64,000 nucleotides of DNA from assembly GCA_040751815.1 (NCBI GenBank), contig JBFMHQ010000002.1, positions 5,577-69,576 on the forward strand. The letters are read 5' to 3'. Shown here piece by piece: positions 3,501 to 23,210 of this stretch. The notes beneath the pieces were generated by a model that saw only the letters and a program-made list of their open reading frames with translations, was not told the DNA's origin and made no database searches. Position 1 is the first letter of the stretch, and every line of letters starts with the position of its first letter. Source of the DNA: Bacillota bacterium. Lineage in GTDB: Bacteria; Bacillota; Desulfotomaculia; Desulfotomaculales; UBA12532. The position numbers and the translations under genes are program-made.

Positions 3501-3980
3501 ATGGCTATTCTTGCCCTCGCCCTTGCCGTGGTCTGTTTCGCCGCCGGCGTGGCCGGAATTATTCTCCCTGTTCTTCCCGGCCCGCCCCTCATCTGGTTAG
3601 GAATGTTACTGTACGGACTCCTGACCGGATTTGAGCATATCTCCTGGATGTTTCTCCTGCTTCAGGCTGCCCTGGTCGCCCTGACCTTTGTTGTCGATTA
3701 CCTGGCCAACGCGTGGGGCGTCAGGCGCTTCGGCGGTTCCCGCGCCGCCATCTGGGGCGGCGGCATCGGCCTTCTCCTTGGCGCCTTTATTTTCGGCCCC
3801 GCAGGTATTGTCCTGGGTCCGTTTGCAGGTGCCTTCCTGGGGGAGCTTCTTACCGGCCGTCACCCTGCACAAGCCTTTCGGGCAGGTATCGGTACACTCC
3901 TCGGCTTTGCCGGTGGCACAGCCATAAAACTCTGTATCGCCGCAGGGATGATAACCTGGTTCTTCATCACCGCTTATTAA
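3501..3980 (+). CDS. DUF456 family membrane protein
   Basis: 159 aa, 4 predicted TM helices. GIILPVLPGPPLIWLG and WGVRRFGGS motifs; GGAGGA RBS upstream. Confidence 0.75.
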   Translation: MAILALALAVVCFAAGVAGIILPVLPGPPLIWLGMLLYGLLTGFEHISWMFLLLQAALVALTFVVDYLANAWGVRRFGGSRAAIWGGGIGLLLGAFIFGPAGIVLGPFAGAFLGELLTGRHPAQAFRAGIGTLLGFAGGTAIKLCIAAGMITWFFITAY

Positions 3981-4746
3981 CCGCGCTCTGTGCCAGGAGA
4001 GCCGCCCCGAGGGCGCCGGTTATCTGCGGCTCCGGCGGCAACAGCAAGCGTTCTCCAAGCTTATTTTCTATGGCTCGAACGACCCCGGCGTTCTTGGCCA
4101 CGCCGCCCGTCATAACCACCGGCGGCGCCAGGCCTACCCGGTGTACAAGGTTGGCCGTTCGCTCGGCAACCGCGTTGCACAGGCCGTGGGCGATTTCTTC
4201 CCGGGAGGTACCCCGGGCAATAAGGGAAACCACCTCCGATTCGGCAAAGACGGTGCACATACTACTAATGGCTGCGGCCTTCCGTGCCTTTAGGGCGAGC
4301 CCTGCAAGCGTCTCCAGGTCAACCTCCAGCGCACGGGCCATAACTTCCAGGAATCGCCCGGTACCCGCAGCGCACTTGTCGTTCATGGCAAAATCCAGTA
4401 CCTTACCGCCGGGAGCCATCCGGATAACTTTACTGTCCTGACCGCCGATATCAATTACCGTTCGCGCGTCCGGAAAAAGATGGGCCACACCCCGTGCATG
4501 ACAGGAAATTTCCGTTACCTGGCGCGTCGCGAAGGGCACGCTGACCCGCCCGTAACCGGTGGCCACGATAGCAATAATATCCTCCCCGGCCACGGCCGCC
4601 TTGGTCAGTGCGGCGTCCAGCACCTTTTCCGCAGCTGTGCGACTATTTGCGCCGGTAGGCATGATGGCGTAAGCCAGAATGTTCCCTTCACGAAGCAGGA
4701 CGGCTTCGGCCGAAAGGGATCCTATGTCGATACCCGCAAAAACCAC
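3967..4746 (-). CDS. HgdC-type activase: BadF/BadG/BcrA/BcrD-family ATPase (2-hydroxyacyl-CoA dehydratase activator-like)
   Basis: FAGIDIGSLS, ATGYGR, IDIGGQDSK, NDKCAAGTGRFLE, VMTGGVAKN. Start refined to GTG 4746, one nt after the upstream TAA (4750-4748), giving 259 aa, the usual size for this family. Confidence 0.85.
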   Translation of the reverse strand: MVFAGIDIGSLSAEAVLLREGNILAYAIMPTGANSRTAAEKVLDAALTKAAVAGEDIIAIVATGYGRVSVPFATRQVTEISCHARGVAHLFPDARTVIDIGGQDSKVIRMAPGGKVLDFAMNDKCAAGTGRFLEVMARALEVDLETLAGLALKARKAAAISSMCTVFAESEVVSLIARGTSREEIAHGLCNAVAERTANLVHRVGLAPPVVMTGGVAKNAGVVRAIENKLGERLLLPPEPQITGALGAALLAQSAVNKR

Positions 4747-4747
4747 G

Positions 4748-6016
4748 TTATACCACCGTCCGGTCCTCGAGCATTTCAAGAAAGGCGTCCAGGCGCGTTC
4801 GCAATTGTTCCGGGGCGTAATCGCGCCGGTCGATACAGTCCCCCTGCAGAGCCAGAAACGGCAGACCTTCCTGTTGCACCAGCCTCCCCAATAAGTGTAA
4901 TGCACCCGTGGTGGCACGGCAACCCTGATGGGCAAACATTACCACCCCATCTGCACGGTAGCACCGGGCGAGGCTTACAAGAACTGCAGCCCGTTCCGTC
5001 GTCGTGTGGTAGGCATGGTGGGCCAGCGTCTTTCTTGCCAGACCGCGCCAGGGAGAGACGCCTGCCAAGGAAGGCCAGTAAACGTAATTCATCTCCTCGA
5101 AGACGATAGCCGCGCCTCTTTCCTCCTCAAGGTAGTTAAGAAGGGAGGGGTCGAAGTACGGTTTGAGATGCAACCATAGCAGCCGCGGCTTTCTCGTTTT
5201 TTCTCGTGCAGGTTGGCGTGCTGCTTCCCGGGCCAGGTCGGTATAAACGGCAGCGGCCTGGGGGTCGCCCTGCCCTACGAAAAGGAGGTAAACAAAGTTC
5301 AGCATGTCACTCCCGCGCCAGGGGACATCCCCCACCCGGGCAAGGTTCGCCGCCACCGCGGCATTGCGAAACCGCTCCGAGGCTTCTACAGCGTGCACCA
5401 GCCTTTCTGGATGCCACGTCAGACGGCAAACCGCGGCCAGTTCCCGGGCTATGTCACGTAACTGCGCGGCGATGTATGCTTCGGCCTCCGGCGTGCGCTC
5501 CCGCGGTACGTCGAGAAAAAAAGTTCTGGCCCCCGTGAGGCGCCCTACAGCCTCGAAGGTTTTCGGTGCACTGTCGCAGATGTGTCCGGTGGCAAGCAAC
5601 GCCGTTGGGGACGGGAAATATCCTTTGAGGGTAGCCCCAAGAACACAGCGGTGAAAGGAACAGAGGTCCCTGTCGTACCAGAATCGCTCCGCCGTGTCTA
5701 GACATTCTTCGGCCAGGCCCAAAGAGGCCAGGAGAGCGGCTGCAACCTCAGGGGAGAAAACCGTCAGGCCGAGGGCGTGCGGGATTTCCGTTGGGAAAAA
5801 GGCGCTGGTCCACACTACAGGCGCCACCCCCGTGTAGGCGCGCTCGGTCTGCTGCAGCGCGTAAAGCGCCATTTGCCGGCTCGTTTCGAGGGGGAAATGG
5901 CTGTGCCGGACCGCCCCGCGGAGGAGACGATAAGTCCACGGGGACCTCAGAACCCGGGTCTTAAGACCGTCCTTGATCTTTACTGCCAGAGCCTCCTGAA
6001 GGTTCAGGATCGCCAC
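4748..6016 (-). CDS. 2-hydroxyacyl-CoA dehydratase / benzoyl-CoA reductase family subunit (HGD-D domain)
   Basis: 422 aa. Motifs FFPTEIPHALG, DLCSFHRC, TGHICDSAPK, FAHQGCRATTG, LQGDCIDRRDY. GTG start overlaps the upstream subunit by 13 nt. Confidence 0.8.
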   Translation of the reverse strand: MAILNLQEALAVKIKDGLKTRVLRSPWTYRLLRGAVRHSHFPLETSRQMALYALQQTERAYTGVAPVVWTSAFFPTEIPHALGLTVFSPEVAAALLASLGLAEECLDTAERFWYDRDLCSFHRCVLGATLKGYFPSPTALLATGHICDSAPKTFEAVGRLTGARTFFLDVPRERTPEAEAYIAAQLRDIARELAAVCRLTWHPERLVHAVEASERFRNAAVAANLARVGDVPWRGSDMLNFVYLLFVGQGDPQAAAVYTDLAREAARQPAREKTRKPRLLWLHLKPYFDPSLLNYLEEERGAAIVFEEMNYVYWPSLAGVSPWRGLARKTLAHHAYHTTTERAAVLVSLARCYRADGVVMFAHQGCRATTGALHLLGRLVQQEGLPFLALQGDCIDRRDYAPEQLRTRLDAFLEMLEDRTVV

Positions 6017-7068
6017 CCCCTGTGCAGCAATTCCGCAAAGGCCTCAACCCTGGTCCGCATCTGGCCGGTTGCGGCATCGCCATATTCACCTTGCAAAAAA
6101 ATTGCCGGAAGACCTGCTTCTTCAAAAACGGCCCGCACCTGCGGGAAATCATGCATGGCGAAGTCGCAGAACTTCAGGGCGAAATAGATCATTCCCGCGC
6201 AAGGGATGGATTTAATTATGCTGCGCAAATACGCCAGCCGGCTCTCCAGGGTCATGCGCGGGCACGGCGCGCGGTTGAGGTACCGGCGGGCCAGATTAAA
6301 GAAAAGGTCCTCTTCCCCCGACGGTGCAGCCTCGTCACCGACTTGCAAAGGCCGGGAACCGGCGCAGCTATCGTCCATAGCCACGCGAAGGCCGCATTCC
6401 TCAACCAGAGAAACGATGTCGTCCGGGACCACGCAACCCGTTAGAAATATGGCGGGCCCGGCGGGAGCCGGGGGGTAGCACTCGTTCGGCGGCGCGGTCG
6501 GCAGTTCCGCAGGCGCCCTCTCGGCTGCGCGTAATACGGCACGCCTGTAGACTGCCCCTGCACAGGACAAGGGCCCGCAAAGTTCACGGAGCAGGATGCG
6601 CTGGCGAACGTATCTTTCTACGGCCTCCCGGAGCAAGACCTCCCCTGCGCTTCCGGACGGTAGCCCCAGTACCGAAGCCAAACGGCGTAACTGCGCAGCA
6701 AAGAAGGTGGCTGCCTCCTCCCCGCTCCGGCGGGGTACATCGAGGAAGTAGACGGGCGGGGATGGCAGAGTGGCACGCCAGGCGCTGTACAAATGGACCA
6801 TCGCCGTACAGGATCCTGCTACTACTATAAGGTCGAGTTTACCCCATACTCCGCGCACGCCTCCGGTCAGACAGGCGCGGGCAAAGGAACAGAGATTGGC
6901 GGCCAGATAAGGAGGCAATTCATCCCCCGCCGCCTGCGGGGGTTCCAGACGCAGCGGTGCAAAGCCCGCCGCTGCCAGAATTTCCACCGGGGTGTAGGTA
7001 CAGAAATACCCGGCCCGTTTGCGGGGCGCCGGTACGCCTGAAGATCCATCATAAAAAGAGGGGATCAT
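6004..7068 (-). CDS. 2-hydroxyacyl-CoA dehydratase / benzoyl-CoA reductase family subunit (second, divergent paralog)
   Basis: GYFCTYTPVEILAAAGF, ANLCSFARAC, AGSCTAMV, LTGCVVPDD, DDSCAG, YFALKFCDFAMHDF. Start taken at ATG 7068 (MIPSFYDG...). The track ORF to 7203 would overlap the TPR gene. Confidence 0.75.
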   Translation of the reverse strand: MIPSFYDGSSGVPAPRKRAGYFCTYTPVEILAAAGFAPLRLEPPQAAGDELPPYLAANLCSFARACLTGGVRGVWGKLDLIVVAGSCTAMVHLYSAWRATLPSPPVYFLDVPRRSGEEAATFFAAQLRRLASVLGLPSGSAGEVLLREAVERYVRQRILLRELCGPLSCAGAVYRRAVLRAAERAPAELPTAPPNECYPPAPAGPAIFLTGCVVPDDIVSLVEECGLRVAMDDSCAGSRPLQVGDEAAPSGEEDLFFNLARRYLNRAPCPRMTLESRLAYLRSIIKSIPCAGMIYFALKFCDFAMHDFPQVRAVFEEAGLPAIFLQGEYGDAATGQMRTRVEAFAELLHRGWRS

Positions 7069-7163
7069 AAGGTCCCTCGCTCCAGCCTGGCTGGCCTGGC
7101 CAACCTTTACCGGATAGTGTATAGTGCAGGTTTTTTCCAGGAATGTGGCTCTTGGAATACATT

Positions 7164-7547
7164 TCAATCCTGGCCGACTTCTACCAGATGGCTGATTAAA
7201 CACCTGGCCTGGAAACGCTTTAGTTCACCAAAGAGAGGTTCCAGGTTTCCGCCACCCTCTCCGGCGCAATAGCGCTCCAGGTAGTACAAAACGGTTTCGA
7301 TTTCGGCGGCCAGTTCCTTGTCTTCGGTAAGGGTGGCGAATTCACTTAAGCATTCGTAGGCTTCCTCTACGTTTCCCTGCCAGAGGGCGATCAACCCGAG
7401 GCCGTACCACGCCGCGCCGCACACCTCGTCTATGGCGATAATTTGCCGGAAAAAGGCGCGTGCCGCGGGGTAGTCCTCGCGCTCGACCGCCAGTTTCGCC
7501 TGTTCCAGGTAGTTTAAGATTTCCCTGCCTCTGGCCTGCTCCGCCAC
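7164..7547 (-). CDS. Small TPR-repeat protein
   Basis: 127 aa. AKLAVEREDYPAARAFFRQIIAIDEVCGAAWYGLGLIALWQGNVEEAYECL reads as two TPR units. First gene of the co-directional four-gene block. Confidence 0.6.
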   Translation of the reverse strand: MAEQARGREILNYLEQAKLAVEREDYPAARAFFRQIIAIDEVCGAAWYGLGLIALWQGNVEEAYECLSEFATLTEDKELAAEIETVLYYLERYCAGEGGGNLEPLFGELKRFQARCLISHLVEVGQD

Positions 7548-7656: not shown

Positions 7657-8871
7657 ATGCGCCATATTATACAAGTGCTCGCCGCCGCAGCCCTGGTCGG
7701 GCTGGTTTCTTTCGTTTTCCTCCTTCGCCCCGGTCCCCCGCAGGTTACGGCGCCCCTTACCGCCGCGGAAACTGAGCACCCTGCCGTAATCACGCTAGCC
7801 GCTGTGGGTGATTTGCTCATGCATATGCCGGTCGTCAACGCGGCGCGTGACGGACAGAGCGGGACTTATGATTTCAGCGCGATATTCGCACCGGTCAGGC
7901 CGTACATAAGCTTTCCCGACTTCGCCATTGCCAACCTCGAAACCCGGCTCGCCGGGGCTGCGAGGGGCTACTGCGGCTACCCGCTCTTCAATACACCCGC
8001 ACAGTTAGCATATGACCTGCGGAAAGCAGGCGTGGACCTTGTAGCTACGGCTAACAACCACAGCCTGGATATGGGGTGGGACGGAATTGTGCAGACCCTG
8101 GATAATCTGGACGCCGCCGGCGTGGCCCACGTCGGTACCTATCGCAACGCCACAGAAAAGGCCACCCCCTTTATCGCCGACGTCCACGGCGTCAGGGTGG
8201 CCATCCTCAACTACACCGCCAGCACCAACGGGCTTCCCGTCCCGCCCGGCAAGGATTTCGCGGTGAACATCCTTGACCCGCAAGTTGTCGTGGCCGAGGC
8301 CAGGGCGGCGCGCCGGATGGACGCCGACCTAGTCGTAGCCATTCTCCATTTTGGTAACGAGTACCAGCGTTGGCCAACCCAGGAACAGCGGCAACTGGCC
8401 AGGGAACTGTGTGCGGGAGGCGTGGACGTCATTATCGGCTCCCACCCCCACGTGGTCCAACCTATCGAGCGTCTTACCGTGATGCGGAACGGCAAGACAT
8501 ACGGGTGCGTAGTCGCTTACTCGCTTGGGAACTTCATCTCCAACCAGCGCTGGCGGTATTCCGACAGCGGCATCGTCCTCTACCTGCGCATTGAAAAGGA
8601 CCACCATGGTACACGGATACGGAGTGTGGAATATCTTCCCGTCTGGGTGCAGAAAAAGGCAGTTGCCGGTCGCTGGATATACCGTGTACTGCCGGTAACG
8701 CCGGATATCCCTGCCGCGGCGACCTCCCTCACGGACCCCGAGCGGCAGCGTATGGCGGAAGTCTGGGAGGAACTTACAACGCATCTGAACAATCCGGCCC
8801 AGGGAATTTTCCCTTACGTGGCCGCTGTTTCCACAGAGCCTCAAGGCGCACGTTCTCCAGGGAAGCCCTAA
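7657..8871 (+). CDS. CapA/PgsA-family metallophosphatase-fold protein (poly-gamma-glutamate capsule synthesis-like)
   Basis: N-terminal TM helix, then LAAVGDLLMH, ANLE, ATANNHSLDMG, HFGNEY, GSHPHVVQP. GGAGGAGG RBS. Confidence 0.8.
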   Translation: MRHIIQVLAAAALVGLVSFVFLLRPGPPQVTAPLTAAETEHPAVITLAAVGDLLMHMPVVNAARDGQSGTYDFSAIFAPVRPYISFPDFAIANLETRLAGAARGYCGYPLFNTPAQLAYDLRKAGVDLVATANNHSLDMGWDGIVQTLDNLDAAGVAHVGTYRNATEKATPFIADVHGVRVAILNYTASTNGLPVPPGKDFAVNILDPQVVVAEARAARRMDADLVVAILHFGNEYQRWPTQEQRQLARELCAGGVDVIIGSHPHVVQPIERLTVMRNGKTYGCVVAYSLGNFISNQRWRYSDSGIVLYLRIEKDHHGTRIRSVEYLPVWVQKKAVAGRWIYRVLPVTPDIPAAATSLTDPERQRMAEVWEELTTHLNNPAQGIFPYVAAVSTEPQGARSPGKP

Positions 8872-9547
8872 ACATCTTGTAGAAATCAGGGTAGCGCTCG
8901 GCCAGGAGGGCGACGATCTGCCGCACCTCGTCCCGTTTTGTCCGGCCGCTGTACGGGCAAGGGTTTGGGATAACAGGAAGCCGGTGGGCCGCCGTGATAG
9001 AGGCTACCACCTTCCCCGGGAGGTAGATAAGCGGCCTTATCAGGGTTACACCGCTACGGTGCAGGTATGTGCGCGGCATGAAGGTTTTAATCTGCCCGGT
9101 ATAGAGCATATTCAAGAAGAAGGTTTCGGCGACGTCGTCCAGATGATGCCCGAGGGCAACTTTGGTTGCGCCAAGCCGGCGTGCCGTTGTGTTGAGGATC
9201 CCGGAGCGGAGTTTGGCGCAAAGGGAGCACGGGCCGCGTTTGGCTTTTTGCTCCACCGCCCGGGCTATAGGATAACTACGGTGGTAAAGGGGGATGCCGT
9301 AGCTCTGACAGAGGTCGGCCAGCGGCCCCACGTCCACCTGGCCCCAACCTGCGTCCACGTACACGGCCAGCAGGTCAAAACGCAGGTGTGAGTGGTGGCG
9401 CAGCAGGTTCAGCACGAAGAGGAGCGCCGCACTGTCTTTCCCGCCTGAGAGACCGACGGCCACGCGGTCGCCGTCAACAACCATCTCGTAATCCTTTATG
9501 GCCTGTTTTACCCTGGTGAGAAACCATGTCCCGTAGTTTCTGGTCAA
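8774..9547 (-). CDS. PP-loop ATP pyrophosphatase, TtcA-like tRNA 2-thiocytidine synthase family
   Basis: VAVGLSGGKDSAALL PP-loop, LGHHLDD, CSLCAKLR / NPCPYS cysteines. TTG start. Confidence 0.8.
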   Translation of the reverse strand: MTRNYGTWFLTRVKQAIKDYEMVVDGDRVAVGLSGGKDSAALLFVLNLLRHHSHLRFDLLAVYVDAGWGQVDVGPLADLCQSYGIPLYHRSYPIARAVEQKAKRGPCSLCAKLRSGILNTTARRLGATKVALGHHLDDVAETFFLNMLYTGQIKTFMPRTYLHRSGVTLIRPLIYLPGKVVASITAAHRLPVIPNPCPYSGRTKRDEVRQIVALLAERYPDFYKMFRASLENVRLEALWKQRPRKGKFPGPDCSDAL

Positions 9548-10761: not shown

Positions 10762-10789
10762 AATAGGGCTCCGTTTCCGGAGCCCTATT
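10762..10789. terminator. Hairpin shared by convergent gapA and acsD (weak bidirectional terminator)
   Basis: AATAGGGCTCCG-tttc-CGGAGCCCTATT perfect 12-bp stem. U-tracts are poor on both strands. It overlaps the acsD stop. Confidence 0.4.
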
Positions 10790-11723
10790 CTACTGCCAGC
10801 CTTTCCATTTGATTGCGAAAGGAAGCGGCGGCTTCCGGATGGCGGAAAACCAGAAGCGAGGCCCCGGCTACGGCCAGGACGCTAGCCGTTACGGCCTCCC
10901 AGAGTATGGCAAGGCGACTGGGTTCTTTTCGGGTACGGTCCTCCCCGGCCTGGGCCTCCCTGGTGCGCCAGGCCTCTTCCCCCACCATGCAAAGGACCGG
11001 GGAAGCAAGCATGCGGTCGCCGGCCAGAGCGGCGGTACGCATACGTTCGATTACCGAATATGCGTATTCGATGCCGTATCCGAGGGGCCCTATAGACGGG
11101 TCCATCGCGATACGTTCGGGCGGCAGGTTCATCTCGCCAATAAGAATATTGAGCTGTTTGGCCAGGTTAACGTCGAGGGGCGTACGCGCGATCACGTTAT
11201 GTCCGTGGGCGAGGCACGCGGCGGTCAGGGTCCTGTAGTTATCCTCCGTGGCCGGGCCCAGGAGATAGTTTCGGCCTGTAAGGGCAGCAGCCACCTCGGG
11301 GAGCACCGCAGCGTCTGTGGCGGCGTCACCGCATCCAAGGATCACAAGGGGCACGCGTACCGCCGCTGCGACCTTCAGGGCAGTTACGGCAGCTTCGTCG
11401 GGCGGTGTACCGCGGGCATCGGGATGGATACTCGCCAGCCGAAGGGCCACGAGATCTGCGCCCAGGTCCGCGCACTTCTCCCCCCAGCGCGCCACGTCTT
11501 CCGTGAGACCTCCCCAGTATTCCCTGAGTGGCGCCGGCCAGCTCCCGTCAAGAAAATCTGTTATCTCGAGGGCCACTGCCGGGCGATTTGGGATTTTAGC
11601 TTCGAAGTGATGAAAAGGTAACCCCATATCACCCCCAACCCGGACGCAATACGGTCCCGACCCCAGGGTCATCTCAAGCACCCGTCCCGGCCATTTTTCC
11701 CGGATGACTTCGAAGTCTACCAT
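10785..11723 (-). CDS. acsD: Corrinoid iron-sulfur protein small subunit (AcsD / CdhD-like)
   Basis: 312 aa. VRVGGD..LPFHHFE, ALEI.D, DLVALRL, PLVILGCGD TIM-barrel motifs. Last gene of the acs block; 7-nt overlap with cooC. Confidence 0.85.
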   Translation of the reverse strand: MVDFEVIREKWPGRVLEMTLGSGPYCVRVGGDMGLPFHHFEAKIPNRPAVALEITDFLDGSWPAPLREYWGGLTEDVARWGEKCADLGADLVALRLASIHPDARGTPPDEAAVTALKVAAAVRVPLVILGCGDAATDAAVLPEVAAALTGRNYLLGPATEDNYRTLTAACLAHGHNVIARTPLDVNLAKQLNILIGEMNLPPERIAMDPSIGPLGYGIEYAYSVIERMRTAALAGDRMLASPVLCMVGEEAWRTREAQAGEDRTRKEPSRLAILWEAVTASVLAVAGASLLVFRHPEAAASFRNQMERLAVE

Positions 11724-12493
11724 GCATCAATCCCCCCCTGGCCGGCATGGTGCTTGAGCAACGTCCTTACGATGGCCTGTACCGCCGTCGCGGCCGGCGC
11801 CGCGTCCGGGAGTTCGGCCAGGGGGCGCCCCGCCATGTCGTACTCCGCCACGGTCCGGTCGTACGGTACGGTGCCCAGGAATTCCAGGCCGGTGCGGCCA
11901 ATTTCCTGCCGCAGGGCGGCACACGCCTCCGCAGGCGCCCTGTTGACCACTAGAAACGACCTGCTAATACCCAGGCCGAGCGTTTTAACAAGGCCGGCGA
12001 TACGGGCTGCCGAAAGCAGGCCACGTACCGTGGGGTCGCTTACCACCACCAGCGCATCGGCCTGTCCCGTCGTGCGCCGGCTGAAATGTTCCAGGCCTGC
12101 CTCGTTATCCAACACCACACATCTGTATGCGGCGCCTAGAGAGGCCACACACCGCCGCAGCACGCTGTTGGCATAGCAGTAGCATCCAGGCCCCTCTGGC
12201 GCGCCCATGGCCAGGAGATCGATATCACGGCCCTCAGCCAGTGCCTGATGGACGCGAAACTTAACGTACTCGTCTTTGGACATACCGGCGGGTACGCCTT
12301 GTCCTGCCATCTCACCCACAATCCCCGCTACGGTTACCGGAGCCTGAAGCCCGAGCGCCTCTCCCAGATTGGCGTTCGGGTCGGCGTCAATGGCCAGCAC
12401 GGGTTTATACCCCAATTTCACCAGGTAAACAATTGCCAGAGCGGCGAAGGTGGTTTTCCCGGATCCGCCCTTGCCTGCCACTGCCAGACGCAA
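11717..12493 (-). CDS. cooC: CooC/AcsF-type nickel-insertion accessory ATPase
   Basis: MRLAVAGKGGSGKTTF deviant Walker A, CYCYAN (CxC metal motif), VLDNEAGLEH. Confidence 0.85.
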   Translation of the reverse strand: MRLAVAGKGGSGKTTFAALAIVYLVKLGYKPVLAIDADPNANLGEALGLQAPVTVAGIVGEMAGQGVPAGMSKDEYVKFRVHQALAEGRDIDLLAMGAPEGPGCYCYANSVLRRCVASLGAAYRCVVLDNEAGLEHFSRRTTGQADALVVVSDPTVRGLLSAARIAGLVKTLGLGISRSFLVVNRAPAEACAALRQEIGRTGLEFLGTVPYDRTVAEYDMAGRPLAELPDAAPAATAVQAIVRTLLKHHAGQGGIDAW

Positions 12494-12496
12494 GCG

Positions 12497-14377
12497 TTAC
12501 CCCTCCCCGGCAAGAGAAGGAAAAAGCTCTTTATTTGTATGGGGCAGAAAAAGGGCCGCCGTAAACTCTTCCATGAAGCGGTTACCCACGCTCAGTTCCA
12601 GGTAAGTCATGCTACGGGCTACGACCGCCATTTCCTGCCGCGCCTGCGCCGATACCAGGGCGGCAGCGGCCCCCTTGAGGGCAGTGTTCCCAACGAAATG
12701 GTAGCGCTCGGGCGGCAAGTCGGGAAGCAAGCCGATACTAACTGCGTCCCTGATGTTGATGTGCTGGCCAAATCCTCCGGCAACGTAAACTTCTTCGACC
12801 GCAGTGAGGTCTAACCCGAGGGTTCCCAGCATGGTCCTCACACCGGCGAAAACGGCAGCCTTCGCGCGCACGAGATTCTCCACCTCCGCCTGGGAAAGAG
12901 CTATGGGGTTGCCGGAACCGGTTTCTTTTTCCCAGGCAAGGACAAACTCCGGTCCACCATCCCCCTCGCGCAAGCGAGGCGTGGCGGCATCCCGCCGGAA
13001 GTTGCCGCTGCGCTCCAGTATCCCAGCAGCGAGAAGGCTGTTCAGAGCGCTGATCAGGCCCGAGCCGCAAATGCCCAGGGGAGGTTTACCCCCGATGGTG
13101 CGGAGGAAAACCTCATATCCCCCCGGCAGTACCGTAACCTCTTCTATGGCCCCCGGAACGGCACGCATCCCCGCCCGTATACCGCCCCCTTCGAAAGCGG
13201 GCCCGGCGGAGCAGGCGCAGGCAACGAGCCAATCGCGGTTGCCGAGGACCATTTCTCCGTTGGTGCCGATATCAACGAAGAGGGTTATCCCCTCCTTACG
13301 GTGCAACCCCGTAGCCACGATGCCCGCCGTGATGTCACCGCCGACGTAACTGGCCACACCGGGCACAACGTACACCGCCGCCCGCGGGTTAATGGCGAGG
13401 CCCAGGTCCTCCGCGTGCAGGCCCGGCCACTCATTTGCCGCCGGCGTATAGGGTTCGAGGCGGATGAATCGCGGCTCCACACCCAGTAAAAGGTGCACCA
13501 TGGTGGTGTTGCCGGCGAAGGTTGCGGCCCACACCCTATCCGGGGCCACCTGGGCGGCGGCAAGCACTTGCCGGAGCAACCCGTTGACGGTTTCAACCAC
13601 CGCATCCTGCAGGATCCTGCGGCCTTCCGGCTGCTCCGTGGCATAAATAATGCGGGTAACGACGTCATCGCCAAAGGCTGCCTGGCGATTGAAGGTTCCC
13701 GAGTCAGCCAGGCGGCGGCCGGAAACTAGATCCCACAACTCTACGGCCACCGTAGTAGTGCCCACGTCAATGGCCACGCCAAAGGCCGGCTGCGGCTCGG
13801 TTCCGGGAACCACGCTCAGGATCTCCCTCCGGCCCTTATTCCCGCTGTAACCAACGGTTATCGCCCAATCCCTTGCGCGCAGTACTGACGGTAGTTCTCG
13901 CAGCACCTCCAGCGGGACGTATACCTCCCCCTGATCCTGTTCCTTCAGGGCACGCAGCAGGCGTGAAAGGTCATCCCCGGGGTCATCGAGGGAAGGGCGC
14001 TCGAGTTGCAGGCTTGTCTGGGAAAAGAGCGGGGCGTCTACCGGAAAACGGCTCTCTTCCTCGCCGAGGCGCCCCGCAGACCGTGCGGACAGCAGCACAC
14101 GATGTTCTTCAAGGCGTGCGGTGGCGGGAATCTCCACCCGGAGATCGGATGCAGGTACGGTCTGGCAGGCCGCGACTTCCAGGGGAGCCACCTTTTTCTC
14201 CCCACCAACTGTCACCCTGCCCCCGGTTACCATAACCCGGCAACGGCCGCAGGTCCCCGCCCCGCCGCAGGCCCCTCTTAAGGTTATACCGGCCCGCGCC
14301 GCGAGCGTTACCAGGTCCTCGCTTCCTTCCGCAGTTACCTCAATCCCATCCGGTAGGAATTGCACACGATAACTCAT
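12497..14377 (-). CDS. Reductive activator of CoFeSP (RACo/AcsV-like): N-terminal [2Fe-2S] ferredoxin domain plus ASKHA ATPase domain
   Basis: MSYRVQFLPDG...CGGAGTCGRCRV, then GVAIDVGTTTV, DIGTNGE, AGGFG. Start refined to ATG 14377, which forms an ATGA overlap with the acsC stop. The upstream 70 codons of the track ORF lie inside acsC. Confidence 0.8.
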   Translation of the reverse strand: MSYRVQFLPDGIEVTAEGSEDLVTLAARAGITLRGACGGAGTCGRCRVMVTGGRVTVGGEKKVAPLEVAACQTVPASDLRVEIPATARLEEHRVLLSARSAGRLGEEESRFPVDAPLFSQTSLQLERPSLDDPGDDLSRLLRALKEQDQGEVYVPLEVLRELPSVLRARDWAITVGYSGNKGRREILSVVPGTEPQPAFGVAIDVGTTTVAVELWDLVSGRRLADSGTFNRQAAFGDDVVTRIIYATEQPEGRRILQDAVVETVNGLLRQVLAAAQVAPDRVWAATFAGNTTMVHLLLGVEPRFIRLEPYTPAANEWPGLHAEDLGLAINPRAAVYVVPGVASYVGGDITAGIVATGLHRKEGITLFVDIGTNGEMVLGNRDWLVACACSAGPAFEGGGIRAGMRAVPGAIEEVTVLPGGYEVFLRTIGGKPPLGICGSGLISALNSLLAAGILERSGNFRRDAATPRLREGDGGPEFVLAWEKETGSGNPIALSQAEVENLVRAKAAVFAGVRTMLGTLGLDLTAVEEVYVAGGFGQHINIRDAVSIGLLPDLPPERYHFVGNTALKGAAAALVSAQARQEMAVVARSMTYLELSVGNRFMEEFTAALFLPHTNKELFPSLAGEG

Positions 14378-15714
14378 GTTTTCCAATGCTCCTTGATAAA
14401 GGCGGGAATGGCACTTGATTCCCTTGGCCCGACAAGAATCTCCCACCCCGAAAGGTCGGCAAGTTTCCCGCTGAGAACGGCTACACTTCCTGGAATAATG
14501 AGGCGTCGGTGCTTTACCCGCTCGCTTACTCCGGATGCCTGAAGGGCGGCAACAATCCTCTCGGGCGTTAGTTTGCCGGCCGCCCATGCCGTCAGTACCG
14601 AGGTGCCCTCTGTGTCAACAGCCAGAATATAAGCCGGAACACGCGCGGCCTCTACATCACCTGCGACGCAAAAATATGTAAGGGAGAAATTGGTAGTAAG
14701 AAAGACCGGCGCGTCGGAACCCGGGTTGCCGATTGAATATAGTTTTGGCTCGACGGCCACCGGCTTCTGGGGGTCGGCGTAAAGATTCATGCGCCAGGTA
14801 ACCAGCGGCAAAATGGCCGCCGGGTCAGTGGTGTCCACCACAACTACTGCCGCATACTTGGCGATGGCCATTGCGGCATCCAGAACATTCTGTACTGGAT
14901 CGTCGCCGGCGATCGTACAGAAAGTCGGAAAGCCGAAGGGCCGGAAGCGCTTGCGTACGGCTAGCCGCCGGATACGTGTCTGGTCGGCAAGAAGCTGCGC
15001 AATACTTGTCGCGCCGGTATCCAGAAGTAACTCCCGGTGACCGAGTTCTGTAACCTTGGCGACAAGGGCAGCCAGCTCCTCCAATCCTGCCGCTTGCACC
15101 ACCAGCGGGACGCCGTAGCTCGCGGCCAGTGGTACCAGGCGCGCGTAGTTATCGGCGGTAGCCGCCCAGACCAGGGGCCGGCCGTCTTTTACAGGTTCCA
15201 GGGCAGCTTCCAGGCAGGCCGTGTCTTCGGACATCAACACCAGGGGTAACCGCGCCTCGCGGGCTGCCGCCAGGACCGCAGCCCGGAAAAGATCGGGGCG
15301 GGCCGACAACCCGCGGACGGCCACCAGATCCACACGGCAAGTTTGCCCCATGCGCTCGAAAACCAGGTTGTTTATCGCCCGTACCCTGCCCGCCAGGGAT
15401 GCGGGCGGCAAGGTATCATCCACGGTGACGCCGATGGCGGTGGGGTTTTCGAAGCGCTTTTCATGCCGGAAAAGCACCGTTTCGTTTCCCACCCGCACCG
15501 CATGCTCTCCGGCGCCGATGGTGATCAGGGCGATGGGTGGCGCAGCCGCGGCGGCCAGCCTTTCACGTGCCTCCTCGCCGATGTGCGGGCAGGCGTCCAG
15601 GGAAGCCTTTCCGGCAGCGAGTTGCATAGCGAAGGCCAGGCAGGTTGGTTGGCCGCAGTCCTTACAGTTTGTCCGGGGTAGCAATTTGTAAATTTCGAGA
15701 CCTGTTAAAGCCAC
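14374..15714 (-). CDS. acsC: Corrinoid iron-sulfur protein large subunit (AcsC)
   Basis: MALTGLEIYKLLPRTNCKDCGQPTCLAFAMQLA (N-terminal 4Fe-4S motif); C-terminal Rossmann corrinoid-binding region. Confidence 0.9.
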   Translation of the reverse strand: MALTGLEIYKLLPRTNCKDCGQPTCLAFAMQLAAGKASLDACPHIGEEARERLAAAAAPPIALITIGAGEHAVRVGNETVLFRHEKRFENPTAIGVTVDDTLPPASLAGRVRAINNLVFERMGQTCRVDLVAVRGLSARPDLFRAAVLAAAREARLPLVLMSEDTACLEAALEPVKDGRPLVWAATADNYARLVPLAASYGVPLVVQAAGLEELAALVAKVTELGHRELLLDTGATSIAQLLADQTRIRRLAVRKRFRPFGFPTFCTIAGDDPVQNVLDAAMAIAKYAAVVVVDTTDPAAILPLVTWRMNLYADPQKPVAVEPKLYSIGNPGSDAPVFLTTNFSLTYFCVAGDVEAARVPAYILAVDTEGTSVLTAWAAGKLTPERIVAALQASGVSERVKHRRLIIPGSVAVLSGKLADLSGWEILVGPRESSAIPAFIKEHWKT

Positions 15715-15726
15715 GCAAGGGCACTC

Positions 15727-19813: not shown

Positions 19814-19891
19814 CGGGATGTGGCGCAGGTGGGCAAGCGCGCTTGCCTTGGGAGCAAGAGGTCGGGGGTTCAAGTCCCCCCATCCCGACCA
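19814..19891 (+). tRNA. tRNA-Pro (anticodon TGG), CCA encoded
   Basis: Acceptor CGGGATG/CATCCCG (C1:G72 as in bacterial tRNA-Pro), anticodon loop CTTGGGA, T-arm GGGGG-TTCAAGT-CCCCC. Confidence 0.9.
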
Positions 19892-19987
19892 GTTTCGAGG
19901 TCGGAGGCAGGAAGTCAGAGGTAAGGAATTCGCCTGGCGAACTACGATAGGCAATCCGTTTCCGATCTTTGCATCGACTACTGTTAC

Positions 19988-20072
19988 GGAGGGGTTCCCG
20001 AGCGGCCAAAGGGGGCAGACTGTAAATCTGCTGGCGCAGCCTTCGCTGGTTCAAATCCAGCCCCCTCCACCA
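19988..20072 (+). tRNA. tRNA-Tyr (anticodon GTA), long variable arm, CCA encoded
   Basis: Acceptor GGAGGGG/CCCCTCC, anticodon loop CTGTAAA, T-loop GGTTCAAATCC. Confidence 0.9.
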
Positions 20073-20129
20073 TAAACGGAAGCAACAAGAGTCAGGAGGT
20101 CCTGTTATCTGACGTCGGACCTCCGATGC

Positions 20130-20205
20130 GGGCCACTAGCTCAATTGGTAGAGCAGGCGACTCTTAATCGTCAGGCTACAGGTTCGAGTCCTGTGTGGCC
20201 CACCA
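20130..20205 (+). tRNA. tRNA-Lys (anticodon CTT), CCA encoded
   Basis: Acceptor GGGCCAC/GTGGCCC, D-arm TAGCTCAATTGGTAGAGC, anticodon loop CTCTTAA, T-loop GGTTCGAGTCC. Confidence 0.9.
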
Positions 20206-23124: not shown

Positions 23125-23210
23125 GCGGCAGTGGCGGAACGGCAGACGCGCTAGATTCAGGATCTAGTGGGGAGACCCCCGTGGAGGTTCAAATCCTCTC
23201 TGCCGCACCA
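23125..23210 (+). tRNA. tRNA-Leu (anticodon CAG), long variable arm, CCA encoded
   Basis: Acceptor GCGGCAG/CTGCCGC, anticodon stem-loop CTAGA-TTCAGGA-TCTAG, T-loop GGTTCAAATCC. Confidence 0.9.

What the first reader, a model, noticed from the sequence alone, without database searches (positions are those of the whole stretch)
3967..7547. Orphan ATP-driven radical-enzyme module: TPR protein + two divergent 2-hydroxyacyl-CoA-dehydratase/BCR-family subunits + HgdC-type activase
Four co-directional, tightly packed minus-strand genes make up this block. They are a 127-aa TPR protein and a subunit of about 354 aa from the dehydratase family (YFCTYTPVEIL, LCSFARAC, GSCTAM, FALKFCDF). Next comes a 422-aa paralog (LCSFHRC, GHICDS, HQGCRAT, LQGDCIDRRDY), then a 259-aa BadF/BadG/BcrA/BcrD ATPase (FAGIDIGS, NDKCAAGTGRF). 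The junctions suggest translational coupling: a 13-nt overlap at 6004-6016, and a TAA at 4750-4748 followed by GTG at 4746. No CoA-transferase, CoA-ligase, acyl-CoA dehydrogenase, ETF or amino-acid fermentation gene is adjacent. The flanks are DUF456/DUF503 and CapA, so context gives no substrate. Characterised relatives are 2-hydroxyacyl-CoA dehydratases, class I benzoyl-CoA reductases and the double-cubane-cluster protein of Carboxydothermus. All of these use ATP-coupled injection of a very low-potential electron. A heteromeric, TPR-associated version in an organism that also carries acs and qmo-like genes has no assigned reaction and is the best candidate here for an undescribed enzyme system.
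Basis: partly seen in the sequence, partly recalled or inferred. Interest (0 to 1): 0.65.

Follow-up and report, generated by a model that had tools for sequence, protein, structure and literature searches.

The report
Orphan ATP-driven iron-sulfur reductase cassette
Three adjacent genes encode an ATP-powered "electron injector" and a two-subunit iron-sulfur enzyme of the benzoyl-CoA-reductase/2-hydroxyacyl-CoA-dehydratase superfamily; they belong to a widespread subfamily that nobody has characterised, its substrate is still unknown, and the neighbouring TPR gene is not a conserved part of it.

Summary
On the minus strand lie a TPR gene (7164-7547), a beta-type HGD-D subunit (6004-7068), an alpha-type HGD-D subunit (4748-6016) and a HadI/HgdC-type activase (3967-4746).

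The two large subunits are a canonical alpha/beta pair, not merely "divergent paralogs". Beta keeps all six cysteines, and three arginines, that bind the [8Fe-9S] double-cubane in BzdN and DCCP. Alpha keeps only the three cysteines of the catalytic open-site [4Fe-4S] of BzdO/HadB, the catalytic Glu, and a clade-specific Cys394.

The beta-alpha-activase cassette recurs in 98 public loci (16 deep lineages) with a nearly invariant alpha signature. None of the three proteins reaches any curated equivalog cut-off. No neighbour family recurs in more than 3-4 of the 16 lineages, and no riboswitch precedes the cassette.

The TPR gene occurs only in the closest relatives. There it is variably present and sits beside a methyltransferase gene that this window lacks.

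Best reading: an ATP-dependent, ferredoxin-fed reductase wired like BzdNO, with a HadB-like polar active site and an unknown substrate, probably housekeeping. It is a new variant of a known kind, of moderate interest.

The parts
3967..4746 (-). Activase ('archerase', component A): a 259-aa ASKHA ATPase predicted to form a homodimer that bridges one [4Fe-4S] cluster.
   Evidence: PF01869 E 3.9e-68 and TIGR00241 at 291.6 bits against a cut-off of 125. Full-length match to HadI 4EHT (246.7 bits), MbdQ, HgdC 1HUX and DCCP-R. Both cluster-Cys motifs (SCHARG, NDKCAAGTGRF) are kept. GTG start at 4746, one base after the alpha TAA.
4748..6016 (-). Alpha-type (catalytic) HGD-D subunit, 422 aa. Predicted [4Fe-4S] with three Cys ligands (C119, C147, C366) and one open iron site. 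Also carries Glu90 and the clade-specific Cys394.
   Evidence: HGD-D E 7.8e-63. The clade profile matches HadB best (148 bits), then BzdO (111) and DCCP (107). AF2 model pLDDT 88.9; Foldseek TM 0.81-0.87 to BzdO and HadB. C119/C147/C366 align with BzdO C95/C128/C380 (Fuchs 2025) and are invariant in 130/130 relatives. C394 is kept in 13 of 16 deep lineages.
6004..7068 (-). Beta-type (electron-relay/storage) HGD-D subunit, 354 aa, predicted to bind an [8Fe-9S] double-cubane.
   Evidence: HGD-D E 9e-58. The clade profile matches BzdN best (270.7 bits), then HadC (252) and DCCP (244). C23/C60/C87/C235/C269/C301 align one-to-one with BzdN C36/73/100/263/293/327 and with the DCCP ligands; R40/R239/R266 align with BzdN Arg53/267/290. 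The six Cys are invariant in 28-29 of 29 homologues. AF2 pLDDT 80.8; Foldseek TM 0.76-0.79 to HadC and BzdN.
7069..7163 (-). 95-nt gap between the TPR gene and beta. This is where sister genomes carry a 311-313-aa Methyltransf_2 gene.
   Evidence: Sequence read. No terminator-like or promoter-like site on the minus strand in this gap. blastn/tblastn against L015 show a clean absence of the methyltransferase gene, with no remnant anywhere in the window. The methyltransferase is present in L015/16/23/24 and L106.
7164..7547 (-). 127-aa TPR protein: a lineage-specific accessory neighbour, not a conserved part of the cassette. Co-transcription with the cassette is possible but unproven.
   Evidence: TPR_16 and TPR_2 sit just above their cut-offs. 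69% identical orthologue in L015/16/23/24. Absent from L106, from Ammonifex and Desulfothermobacter, and from all other lineages.

Best explanation
The core is a three-gene, two-component enzyme.

Established by homology:
- The activase is a homodimeric ASKHA ATPase holding a bridging [4Fe-4S] cluster. It takes an electron from reduced ferredoxin or flavodoxin. On ATP binding and hydrolysis it docks on the alpha-beta heterodimer and pushes that electron to a very low potential.

Predicted from the ligand pattern:
- The electron first enters an [8Fe-9S] double-cubane in beta. All six Cys ligands and three surrounding Arg residues are kept, as in BzdN and DCCP.
- It then moves to a three-Cys [4Fe-4S] cluster in alpha. 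The fourth iron of that cluster is free to bind water or substrate, as in BzdO and HadB. Glu90 next to it acts as acid/base.

Inferred:
- Beta has kept the full, multi-electron double-cubane, as in the net reductases BzdNO and DCCP. It does not have the [4Fe-5S] remnant of the redox-neutral dehydratases. So the enzyme is more likely a stoichiometric, ATP-consuming (two-electron) reductase than a dehydratase that recycles one electron.
- The alpha pocket, which occupies the space of the lost second cubane, is lined by invariant polar or charged residues: H122, R123, D148, H283, E307/E308, R367, D393, C394 and D396. So the substrate head-group is polar, not an aromatic ring. It is most probably still a thioester (CoA or carrier-bound).
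- The cassette stands alone among housekeeping genes in many lineages. This points to a general cellular or biosynthetic role rather than a catabolic pathway.

The TPR protein is not part of the machine.
For: - Family and fold.
- Ligand mapping: beta C23/60/87/235/269/301 align with BzdN C36/73/100/263/293/327 and R40/239/266 with Arg53/267/290. HadC lacks two of these Cys (with the residue lists from Fuchs et al. 2025, PMC11971306). Alpha C119/147/366 align with BzdO C95/128/380 and E90 with HadB E55/BzdO E65.
- Conservation: the six beta Cys are kept in 28-29 of 29 homologues and the three alpha Cys in 130 of 130. The 16-residue alpha signature is essentially identical across 16 lineages that share 35% identity or less.
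- Functional unit: beta-alpha-activase order in about 100 loci. Natural beta-alpha and alpha-activase fusions exist. Overlapping or abutting stops and starts occur here and in relatives.
- Role of the double-cubane as a two-electron store in BzdNO, and its loss in the dehydratases: PMC11971306, discussion section.
- Orphan, housekeeping context.
Against: - No biochemical or expression data exist for any member.
- Cofactor content is inferred from aligned cysteines only.
- The alpha profile is closest to a dehydratase alpha subunit (HadB 148 bits against BzdO 111). The single-gene activase is 55% identical to a dehydratase activator. Both would fit a dehydratase equally well.
- The 'polar pocket' rests on sequence alignment and secondary-structure position. 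I had no access to model coordinates.
- A thioester substrate is not demonstrated. The Tyr that hydrogen-bonds the thioester oxygen in BzdO (Tyr97, also Tyr in HadB) is Phe121 here.
- One lineage (deep group 5) has lost a distal-cubane ligand, so the double-cubane is not strictly universal.
Confidence: 0.5

Rival explanations
1. It is a genuine 2-hydroxyacyl-CoA dehydratase. One electron is injected once, a ketyl radical forms, water is eliminated and the electron is recycled. The CoA-transferase and dehydrogenase it needs are encoded elsewhere.
For: The alpha profile matches HadB best (148 bits, near full length). The activase is closest to HadI (246.7 bits) and is a single gene, as in dehydratases. 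The equivalent of HadB Glu55 is invariant. Foldseek TM to HadB is 0.83-0.87.
Against: Beta carries all six double-cubane ligands, whereas HadC lacks two. HadB/HadC equivalog scores are 64.5 and 79.9 bits against cut-offs of 750 and 700. No CoA-transferase, 2-hydroxyacid dehydrogenase or acyl-CoA dehydrogenase/ETF is next to the cassette in any of 16 lineages. The hosts are acetogens, sulfate reducers, syntrophs and haloalkaliphiles rather than amino-acid fermenters. The conserved Tyr after the first Cys is Phe here.
Confidence: 0.2
2. It is a DCCP-like reductase of a small, non-thioester molecule. Candidates are a nitrogen, sulfur or selenium species, or a cofactor intermediate. Cys394 would take part as ligand, hydrogen donor or persulfide carrier.
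For: The context is orphan in all lineages. The invariant pocket is polar or charged. The thioester-binding Tyr is lost. The extra Cys394 is conserved in 13 of 16 lineages. There are links to sulfur and selenium genes in some loci: a TtcA-like gene overlapping beta in Ammonifex and Desulfothermobacter; selB ... cassette ... tRNA-Sec in L018; a Se/S carrier and TusA/DsrE near L021. Haft's reported link between double-cubane proteins and SelD is in the same direction. TudS, a desulfidase, belongs to the same superfamily.
Against: Alpha has lost the second cubane exactly as the thioester-binding subunits BzdO and HadB have. It keeps the long N-terminal helical arm typical of those subunits. Each sulfur or selenium neighbour is confined to one lineage. 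NF040772 (DCCP) scores 76 and 108 bits against a cut-off of 350.
Confidence: 0.2
3. [quoted passage not shown]
For: The beta profile matches BzdN best (270.7 bits) with all ligands and the Arg environment. The predicted cofactor arrangement matches BzdNO. The S71-A72-F73 stretch aligns with BzdO Ser44-Ala45-Trp46 (tentative). In Moorellaceae the cassette is followed by a transporter, a PaaK-like CoA ligase and indolepyruvate:ferredoxin oxidoreductase.
Against: BzdO His131 is Ala150 here and Tyr97 is Phe121. The hydrophobic ring pocket is replaced by charged residues. There is one activase gene, not the two different ATPase subunits of benzoyl-CoA reductases. No dienoyl-CoA hydratase, dehydrogenase or ring hydrolase is nearby. 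The Bzd/Bcr equivalogs are far below cut-off. The PaaK/IOR neighbourhood is confined to one family.
Confidence: 0.07
4. One reading: a four-component system in which the TPR protein is an integral scaffold or chaperone of the enzyme.
For: The TPR gene is co-directional and no terminator-like site lies in the 95-nt gap. A 69% identical TPR orthologue sits upstream of the cassette in four related loci.
Against: There is no TPR gene in L106, a 71%-identical relative with otherwise the same synteny. There is none in Ammonifex or Desulfothermobacter, and none among the immediate neighbours in the other lineages. Where present in relatives, its stop abuts the methyltransferase gene rather than beta.
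Confidence: 0.05

Closest known systems
BzdNO/BzdPQ (and MbdNO/MbdPQ): Bzd-type class I benzoyl-CoA reductase (PDB 8S02, 9G87/9GAI; Fuchs et al. 2025, PMC11971306)
   Same: Heterodimer of two HGD-D-fold subunits. The beta-type subunit has the same six Cys, with the same spacing in the N-terminal half (X36, X26), and the same three Arg around an [8Fe-9S] double-cubane. The alpha-type subunit has the same three Cys for an open-site [4Fe-4S] and the same catalytic Glu. It is powered by an ASKHA ATPase with a bridging cluster.
   Different: Alpha lacks BzdO His131 (Ala here) and Tyr97 (Phe here), and its pocket is polar rather than hydrophobic. There is one activase gene instead of two different ATPase subunits. 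There is no aromatic-degradation context. Sequence scores are far below the Bzd equivalog cut-offs. The alpha profile is closer to HadB than to BzdO.
[quoted passage not shown]
   Same: Three-gene logic (alpha, beta, single homodimeric activator). Alpha is the best profile match, with the same three Cys, the same Glu and a basic residue after the third Cys. The activase is about 55% identical over its full length.
   Different: HadC has only a [4Fe-4S]/[4Fe-5S] cluster and lacks two of the six Cys that beta keeps here. There are no partner CoA-transferase, dehydrogenase or ETF genes. Scores are an order of magnitude below the HadB/HadC equivalog cut-offs. The Tyr after the first Cys is replaced by Phe-His.
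DCCP/DCCP-R: the double-cubane cluster protein of Carboxydothermus hydrogenoformans (PDB 6ENO, 7YYL), and YjiM/YjiL
   Same: Beta shares the six ligating Cys of the double-cubane. The activase is homodimeric and single-gene. The physiological substrate is unknown and the genomic context is orphan.
   Different: DCCP is a homodimer with a double-cubane, which is also the active site, in every subunit. Here only beta has it, and alpha has been converted to an open-site [4Fe-4S] subunit. The seventh Cys of the DCCP motif is not conserved. NF040772 scores 76-108 bits against a cut-off of 350.

Membership tests
BCR-I/HAD ('FldB/C', HGD-D, IPR010327) radical-enzyme superfamily with archerase activator | Two HGD-D-fold subunits of alpha type and beta type | tested here: met
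   PF06050 E 7.8e-63 and 9e-58. The alpha profile matches HadB/BzdO and the beta profile matches BzdN/HadC. Foldseek TM 0.76-0.87.
BCR-I/HAD ('FldB/C', HGD-D, IPR010327) radical-enzyme superfamily with archerase activator | Adjacent BcrAD_BadFG/HgdC-type ATPase with the two cluster-bridging Cys | tested here: met
   PF01869 E 3.9e-68 and TIGR00241 291.6 bits against a cut-off of 125. SCHARG and NDKCAAGTGRF align with HadI.
BCR-I/HAD ('FldB/C', HGD-D, IPR010327) radical-enzyme superfamily with archerase activator | ATP-dependent reduction of the alpha-beta clusters by the activase | not testable with these tools
   Needs anaerobic biochemistry.
2-hydroxyacyl-CoA dehydratases (HadBC, HgdAB, FldBC, LcdAB) | Alpha subunit with a three-Cys [4Fe-4S] and catalytic Glu | tested here: met
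   C119/C147/C366 and E90 align with the HadB ligands and Glu55. They are invariant in the clade. The role of Glu55 is recalled from the HadBC literature and was not tested.
2-hydroxyacyl-CoA dehydratases (HadBC, HgdAB, FldBC, LcdAB) | Beta subunit with a single three-Cys cluster ([4Fe-4S]/[4Fe-5S]) and no distal-cubane ligands | tested here: not met
   Beta has six invariant Cys. HadC has Pro and Ala at the positions of C23 and C235.
2-hydroxyacyl-CoA dehydratases (HadBC, HgdAB, FldBC, LcdAB) | Curated equivalog score (NF052455 HadB, NF052456 HadC) | tested here: not met
   64.5 bits against 750 and 79.9 bits against 700.
2-hydroxyacyl-CoA dehydratases (HadBC, HgdAB, FldBC, LcdAB) | Genomic association with a CoA-transferase, a 2-hydroxyacid dehydrogenase and an enoyl-CoA reductase/ETF | tested here: not met
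   None in the window flanks or in the neighbourhoods of 98 loci in 16 lineages.
Class I benzoyl-CoA reductase (Bzd/Bcr type) | BzdN-type subunit with six Cys for [8Fe-9S] and an Arg-rich distal environment | tested here: met
   One-to-one alignment of six Cys and three Arg (residue numbers from PMC11971306). BzdN His330 is not conserved (Ala304).
Class I benzoyl-CoA reductase (Bzd/Bcr type) | BzdO-type active site: Glu65, His131, Tyr97, and the hydrophobic ring pocket Trp46/Leu302/Leu383 | tested here: not met
   The Glu is kept (E90). His131 is Ala150, Tyr97 is Phe121 and Glu381 is Arg367. The pocket positions are polar.
Class I benzoyl-CoA reductase (Bzd/Bcr type) | Two different ATPase subunits (BzdP/Q, BcrA/D) | tested here: not met
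   There is a single activase gene here and in about 100 related loci.
Class I benzoyl-CoA reductase (Bzd/Bcr type) | Curated equivalog scores (TIGR03190/03191/03192, TIGR02259-63) | tested here: not met
   59-213 bits against cut-offs of 380-578.
Double-cubane cluster protein (DCCP, NF040772) | Six ligating Cys of the 7-Cys motif | tested here: met
   Met for beta only. Alpha lacks the three distal ligands.
Double-cubane cluster protein (DCCP, NF040772) | Homodimer of one gene product, with the double-cubane as the active site; equivalog score at least 350 | tested here: not met
   There are two different subunits. NF040772 scores 108.3 bits (beta) and 76.4 bits (alpha).
Double-cubane cluster protein (DCCP, NF040772) | Physical presence of an [8Fe-9S] cluster | not testable with these tools
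   Needs metal analysis, spectroscopy or a structure.

The most novel reading that the evidence does not exclude
The cassette defines a previously unrecognised, functionally uniform branch of the BCR/HAD superfamily. It would be a housekeeping, ATP-driven reductase that combines a BzdN-type double-cubane electron store with a HadB-like active site rebuilt around an invariant Cys394 and a ring of charged residues. On this reading it catalyses a reaction of a new type for the family, on a polar and possibly non-CoA substrate such as a sulfur or selenium compound or a cofactor/biosynthetic intermediate, in acetogens, sulfate reducers, syntrophs and anaerobic actinobacteria.
Probability: 0.25. Interest if true: 0.75.

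Novelty: new variant of a known kind. Interest (0 to 1): 0.45.

Why it matters
ATP-coupled injection of electrons at potentials near -1 V is known for only a few reactions: nitrogenase-type enzymes, benzoyl-CoA reduction and 2-hydroxyacyl-CoA dehydration. The double-cubane cluster has a defined physiological role only in benzoyl-CoA reductase.

This cassette offers a well-delimited test case. It is a conserved three-gene unit with a nearly invariant active-site signature, present in cultivable organisms (Ammonifex degensii, Desulfothermobacter, Moorella/Neomoorella, Natranaerobius). It predicts a second kind of heterodimeric double-cubane enzyme outside aromatic degradation. Finding its substrate would add a reaction to this small family and could explain why many strict anaerobes keep an orphan "dehydratase".

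If it turns out to be one more acyl-CoA dehydratase or reductase, the gain is a corrected annotation.

Tried and rejected
1. Guilt by association. I collected 107 related loci, called ORFs, clustered the neighbours within 4-6 kb and counted them per deep lineage. No family occurs in more than 3-4 of the 16 lineages:
- CobU, radical-SAM/SPASM, PaaK-like ligase, PALP enzyme, class I/II aminotransferase and ADP-forming acetyl-CoA synthetase: three lineages each.
- CobC, isochorismatase-like and B12-binding protein: two lineages each.
These hints (B12, aromatic amino acids, sulfur/selenium, arginine genes) are too scattered to name a substrate.

2. Riboswitches or leaders upstream of the cassette. 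Rfam at gathering thresholds found none in the window or in 17 loci.

3. A remnant of the methyltransferase gene of sister genomes in the window: none.

4. Homologues of the recurrent neighbours elsewhere in the 64-kb window: none.

5. Swol_0412, an abundant COG1775 protein of Syntrophomonas wolfei (PMC3582634), as an expressed member. No S. wolfei protein is named among the best 120 relatives of the Syntrophomonadaceae alpha. The idea was dropped as unverified.

6. Literature searches for a described heterodimeric double-cubane enzyme other than benzoyl-CoA reductase, or for this clade: nothing found.

7. Placing Cys394 relative to the cluster. The tools give no model coordinates. I could establish only that it lies two residues after the last strand of the C-terminal domain.

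8. A formal phylogeny with HgdAB, FldBC, LcdAB and BcrBC was not built, because those sequences could not be fetched. Profile scores and curated cut-offs were used instead.

Full report
OBSERVATION

The six-frame ORF list shows four co-directional minus-strand ORFs at the stated coordinates: 3967-4935 (longest form), 4748-6016, 6004-7203 (longest form) and 7164-7547.

Pfam and NCBIfam give:
- BcrAD_BadFG (E 3.9e-68) and TIGR00241 'acyl-CoA dehydratase activase' (291.6 bits, cut-off 125) for the first ORF.
- HGD-D for the two large proteins (E 7.8e-63 and 9e-58).
- Borderline but passing TPR_16/TPR_2 hits for the 127-aa protein.

Reading the junctions confirms the following:
- The TPR gene runs from GTG 7547 (preceded by GGAGG) to TGA 7164.
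- Beta starts at ATG 7068 (preceded by GAGGGA) and ends at TGA 6004.
- Alpha starts at GTG 6016, a 13-nt overlap with beta, and ends at TAA 4748.
- The activase starts at GTG 4746 and ends at TGA 3967.
- NCBI's own calls for this MAG are the same 354-aa and 422-aa products (P0177, P0001).

The one correction is that TPR and beta are separated by 95 nt, so the TPR gene is not tightly packed. The flanks are DUF456 (convergent, 14-nt overlap), DUF503, an isochorismatase-like gene and DnaD/DnaC on one side. On the other side lie CapA, a TtcA-like PP-loop gene, GAPDH and the acs cluster.

WHAT THE THREE CORE PROTEINS ARE

Against solved structures, the 422-aa protein matches the catalytic subunits BzdO and HadB, and the 354-aa protein matches the partner subunits HadC and BzdN.

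With clade profiles the picture sharpens:
- The alpha profile scores HadB 148 bits, BzdO 111 and DCCP 107.
- The beta profile scores BzdN 270.7 bits, HadC 252 and DCCP 244.

AlphaFold2 models are confident (alpha pLDDT 88.9, beta 80.8). They superpose on BzdO/HadB (TM 0.81-0.87) and HadC/BzdN (TM 0.76-0.79).

The activase aligns end to end with HadI (246.7 bits), MbdQ, HgdC and DCCP-R. It keeps both cluster-bridging Cys motifs.

COFACTOR PREDICTION

Fuchs et al. 2025 (PMC11971306) showed that BzdN binds an [8Fe-9S] double-cubane through Cys36/73/100/263/293/327. The distal sub-cluster is surrounded by Arg53/267/290. BzdO binds a [4Fe-4S]-OH2 cluster through Cys95/128/380, with Glu65 and His131 as catalysts. 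The dehydratases have lost the second cubane in both subunits.

In the gap-free N-terminal alignment, beta C23/C60/C87 fall exactly on BzdN 36/73/100, and R40 falls on Arg53. In the C-terminal half, C235/C269/C301 fall on 263/293/327, and R239/R266 on Arg267/290. The profile alignment shows the same six columns as Cys in DCCP. HadC has Pro and Ala at two of them.

The six Cys are invariant in 19 of 19, and then 28-29 of 29, homologues from many lineages.

Alpha keeps only C119/C147/C366, which align with BzdO 95/128/380 and are invariant in 130 of 130 relatives. It also keeps E90, which aligns with HadB Glu55 and BzdO Glu65. It has non-Cys residues where the distal ligands would be.

So the predicted wiring is that of BzdNO: a double-cubane in beta and an open-site [4Fe-4S] in alpha. 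The alpha sequence itself, however, is nearer to a dehydratase alpha subunit.

Differences from both models:
- BzdO His131 is Ala150.
- The Tyr two residues after the first Cys (BzdO Tyr97, which binds the thioester oxygen; also Tyr in HadB) is Phe121, followed by an invariant His122.
- BzdO Glu381 is Arg367.
- A Cys (C394, in a 'GDC' motif) follows the last strand of the C-terminal domain. BzdO has Met and HadB has Gln at this position.

A CONSERVED, UNCHARACTERISED ORTHOLOGOUS GROUP

Word-indexed and exhaustive searches find the alpha clade in these organisms:
- MAGs of Bacillota and Desulfotomaculales.
- Ammonifex degensii and Desulfothermobacter acidiphilus.
- Moorella and Neomoorella species, and Thermanaeromonas.
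- Natranaerobius and Natranaerofaba.
- Soda-lake Syntrophomonadaceae.
- Actinomycetota, Chloroflexota and Thermodesulfobacteriota.

In the representative library, 158 clusters score better than E 1e-30, and the 150 listed all reach at least 126.9 bits. Every structurally characterised relative scores 64 bits or less with the single sequence. All source names are generic. No curated equivalog threshold is approached.

Among the 102 genome, encoding-contig and metagenome loci in hand at that step, 98 carry alpha. They fall into 54 groups at 85% identity and 16 deep groups at 55% identity. The order beta-alpha-activase is nearly universal. Natranaerobius has activase-beta-alpha. The Syntrophomonadaceae loci lack an adjacent activase.

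Natural beta-alpha fusions (785-802 aa) and alpha-activase fusions (684-711 aa) exist.

Across the 16 deep groups the alpha signature [S/T/N]71-F73-E90-C119-F121-H122-R123-C147-D148-A150-H283-C366-R367-D393-C394-D396 is almost unchanged, although overall identity falls to about 30%. This argues for a single conserved function.

The exception is deep group 5. There alpha C394 becomes His, D148 becomes Arg and F121 becomes Tyr. In the same loci beta loses C235 and R40.

THE TPR GENE AND THE SURROUNDINGS

Within the closest lineage the genes just upstream of beta vary:
- TPR plus Methyltransf_2 in L015/16/23/24.
- Methyltransf_2 only in L106.
- TPR only in this window. There is no methyltransferase remnant anywhere in the 64 kb.
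- In Ammonifex and Desulfothermobacter a TtcA-like PP-loop gene overlaps the start of beta by 26 nt, and there is no CapA, TPR or methyltransferase gene.

In L015 the TPR stop abuts the methyltransferase start (TAGATG).

Elsewhere the immediate same-strand upstream gene is heterogeneous: GerM-like 'Germane', argH, metK, a radical-SAM/SPASM gene, a periplasmic-binding protein and a polysaccharide deacetylase. No TPR family is found among them. Only 9 of 50 dereplicated loci have any same-strand gene within 300 nt downstream. The cassette is therefore usually the end of its transcription unit.

No neighbour family is shared by more than 3-4 of the 16 deep groups. No Rfam element precedes the cassette in the window or in 17 loci.

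Typical surroundings are housekeeping genes: clpX-lon-engB, coaBC-metK, argFGH, alaS-ruvX-yceG and dnaD-dnaC.

The 'TPR-associated' label does not hold.

MECHANISM

What is shown by homology: an archerase-type ATPase delivers a low-potential electron to an alpha-beta HGD-D heterodimer.

What is predicted from the ligands: the path runs from the activase [4Fe-4S] to the beta [8Fe-9S] to the alpha [4Fe-4S], which has an open iron site beside Glu90.

What is inferred:
1. Net reduction rather than redox-neutral dehydration. The complete double-cubane is retained. In BzdNO it is proposed to accumulate two electrons, and the dehydratases have lost it.
2. A polar substrate head-group. The loops that would have held the distal cubane in alpha carry invariant His, Lys, Glu, Tyr, Trp, Asp and Cys residues. 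BzdO has Trp46, Leu302 and Leu383 there.
3. Probably still a thioester. Alpha retains the overall architecture and N-terminal helical arm of the CoA-binding subunits. This point is weak, because the thioester-binding Tyr is lost.
4. A general rather than catabolic role, from the orphan, housekeeping placement.

Cys394 sits two residues after strand 387-392, and the ligand C366 follows strand 357-363. If the domain has the 2-1-3-4 strand order of chelatase-like and nitrogenase-like folds, the two loops are neighbours. That strand order is my recollection and was not tested. In that case Cys394 could be a displaceable fourth ligand, a hydrogen donor or a persulfide carrier. I could not measure this.

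COMPARISON AND NOVELTY

The module works like BzdNO/HadBC/DCCP systems. It fails a defining feature of each of the three:
- Dehydratases: it has the double-cubane ligands, lacks pathway partners and scores far below the equivalog cut-offs.
- Benzoyl-CoA reductases: it lacks His131, Tyr97 and the hydrophobic pocket, has one ATPase gene and has no aromatic-degradation context.
- DCCP: it is a heterodimer, alpha lacks three ligands and the score is far below cut-off.

The held literature describes BzdNO as the first double-cubane enzyme with a defined function, and lists no other heterodimeric type.

I therefore rate it a new variant of a known kind. The evidence is sequence-level only. Orphan HGD-D/activase cassettes are a familiar 'known unknown' to specialists, so interest is moderate (0.45).

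The most novel reading not excluded is a housekeeping ATP-driven reductase with new chemistry on a polar, possibly non-CoA substrate. I give it a probability of about 0.25.

Noticed in passing
window 7069-7163, compared with L015:7968-8903 and L106:5957-6898: Sister genomes carry a 311-313-aa Methyltransf_2 gene between the TPR/CapA genes and beta. It has only a weak match to the corrinoid-protein-associated methyltransferase CpaM (30 bits). This window has a clean 95-nt gap instead, and no remnant of that gene anywhere in the 64 kb.
   Followed up: yes
window 8774-9547 (-); L014:8327-9061; L107:4338-5063: A TtcA-like PP-loop ATPase (NF007972, 177.8 bits, below the cut-off of 272). In Ammonifex and Desulfothermobacter it overlaps the start of beta by 26 nt, which looks like one operon. 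In this window it is separated from the cassette by the opposite-strand CapA gene, with which it overlaps convergently by 98 nt.
   Followed up: partly
L003-L008, L033-L041 (Syntrophomonadaceae); L025, L029; L042/L043: An ArsR-type regulator and a roughly 460-aa radical-SAM/SPASM protein lie directly upstream of beta-alpha in three deep lineages. The radical-SAM protein's best matches, NirJ2/AhbD and peptide maturases, are all far below cut-off. In the Syntrophomonadaceae loci no activase is adjacent. This could be a maturase or a partner enzyme.
   Followed up: partly
L018:5241-12739: The cassette is embedded in a selenocysteine locus: selB, a periplasmic-binding protein, beta, alpha, activase, then tRNA-Sec. 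In the same deep group, L021 has a Se/S-carrier gene, TusA/DsrE and a cysteine desulfurase a few kb upstream, and a PALP enzyme overlapping the activase stop.
   Followed up: no
L083, L089, L090, L094, L098 (deep group 5): Correlated changes in one lineage. Alpha has Cys394 changed to His, D148 to Arg and F121 to Tyr. In the same loci beta has lost the distal-cubane ligand C235 and Arg40.
   Followed up: partly
L017 and L105: The cassette is flanked on both sides by toxin-antitoxin pairs (PhdYeFM/PIN, ParE). This suggests it sits in a variable or mobile region in those genomes.
   Followed up: no
P0137 (representative library, 2004 aa): A polyketide-synthase module (DH-KR-KS-ACP-ACP) ends in an HGD-D domain that is 28% identical to alpha. 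An HGD-D enzyme is thus fused to carrier-protein-tethered chemistry.
   Followed up: no
L005, L009, L036, L044 (Moorellaceae): Downstream of the activase, on the same strand, lie a Na+/solute symporter, a PaaK-like CoA ligase and indolepyruvate:ferredoxin oxidoreductase subunits. This operon-like arrangement is confined to this family.
   Followed up: partly
window 10785-17931 (-): An acetyl-CoA synthase gene cluster: CdhD-like small corrinoid subunit, CooC-like ATPase, AcsV/RACo-type corrinoid activator (619 bits, cut-off 800), CdhD+FeS large corrinoid subunit, and ACS beta subunit. It is syntenic with L015 and L106.
   Followed up: partly
window 19814-20205 and 23125-23210 (+): Four tRNA genes (Pro-TGG, Tyr-GTA, Lys-CTT, Leu-CAG). 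There is no tRNA-Sec in the window.
   Followed up: yes
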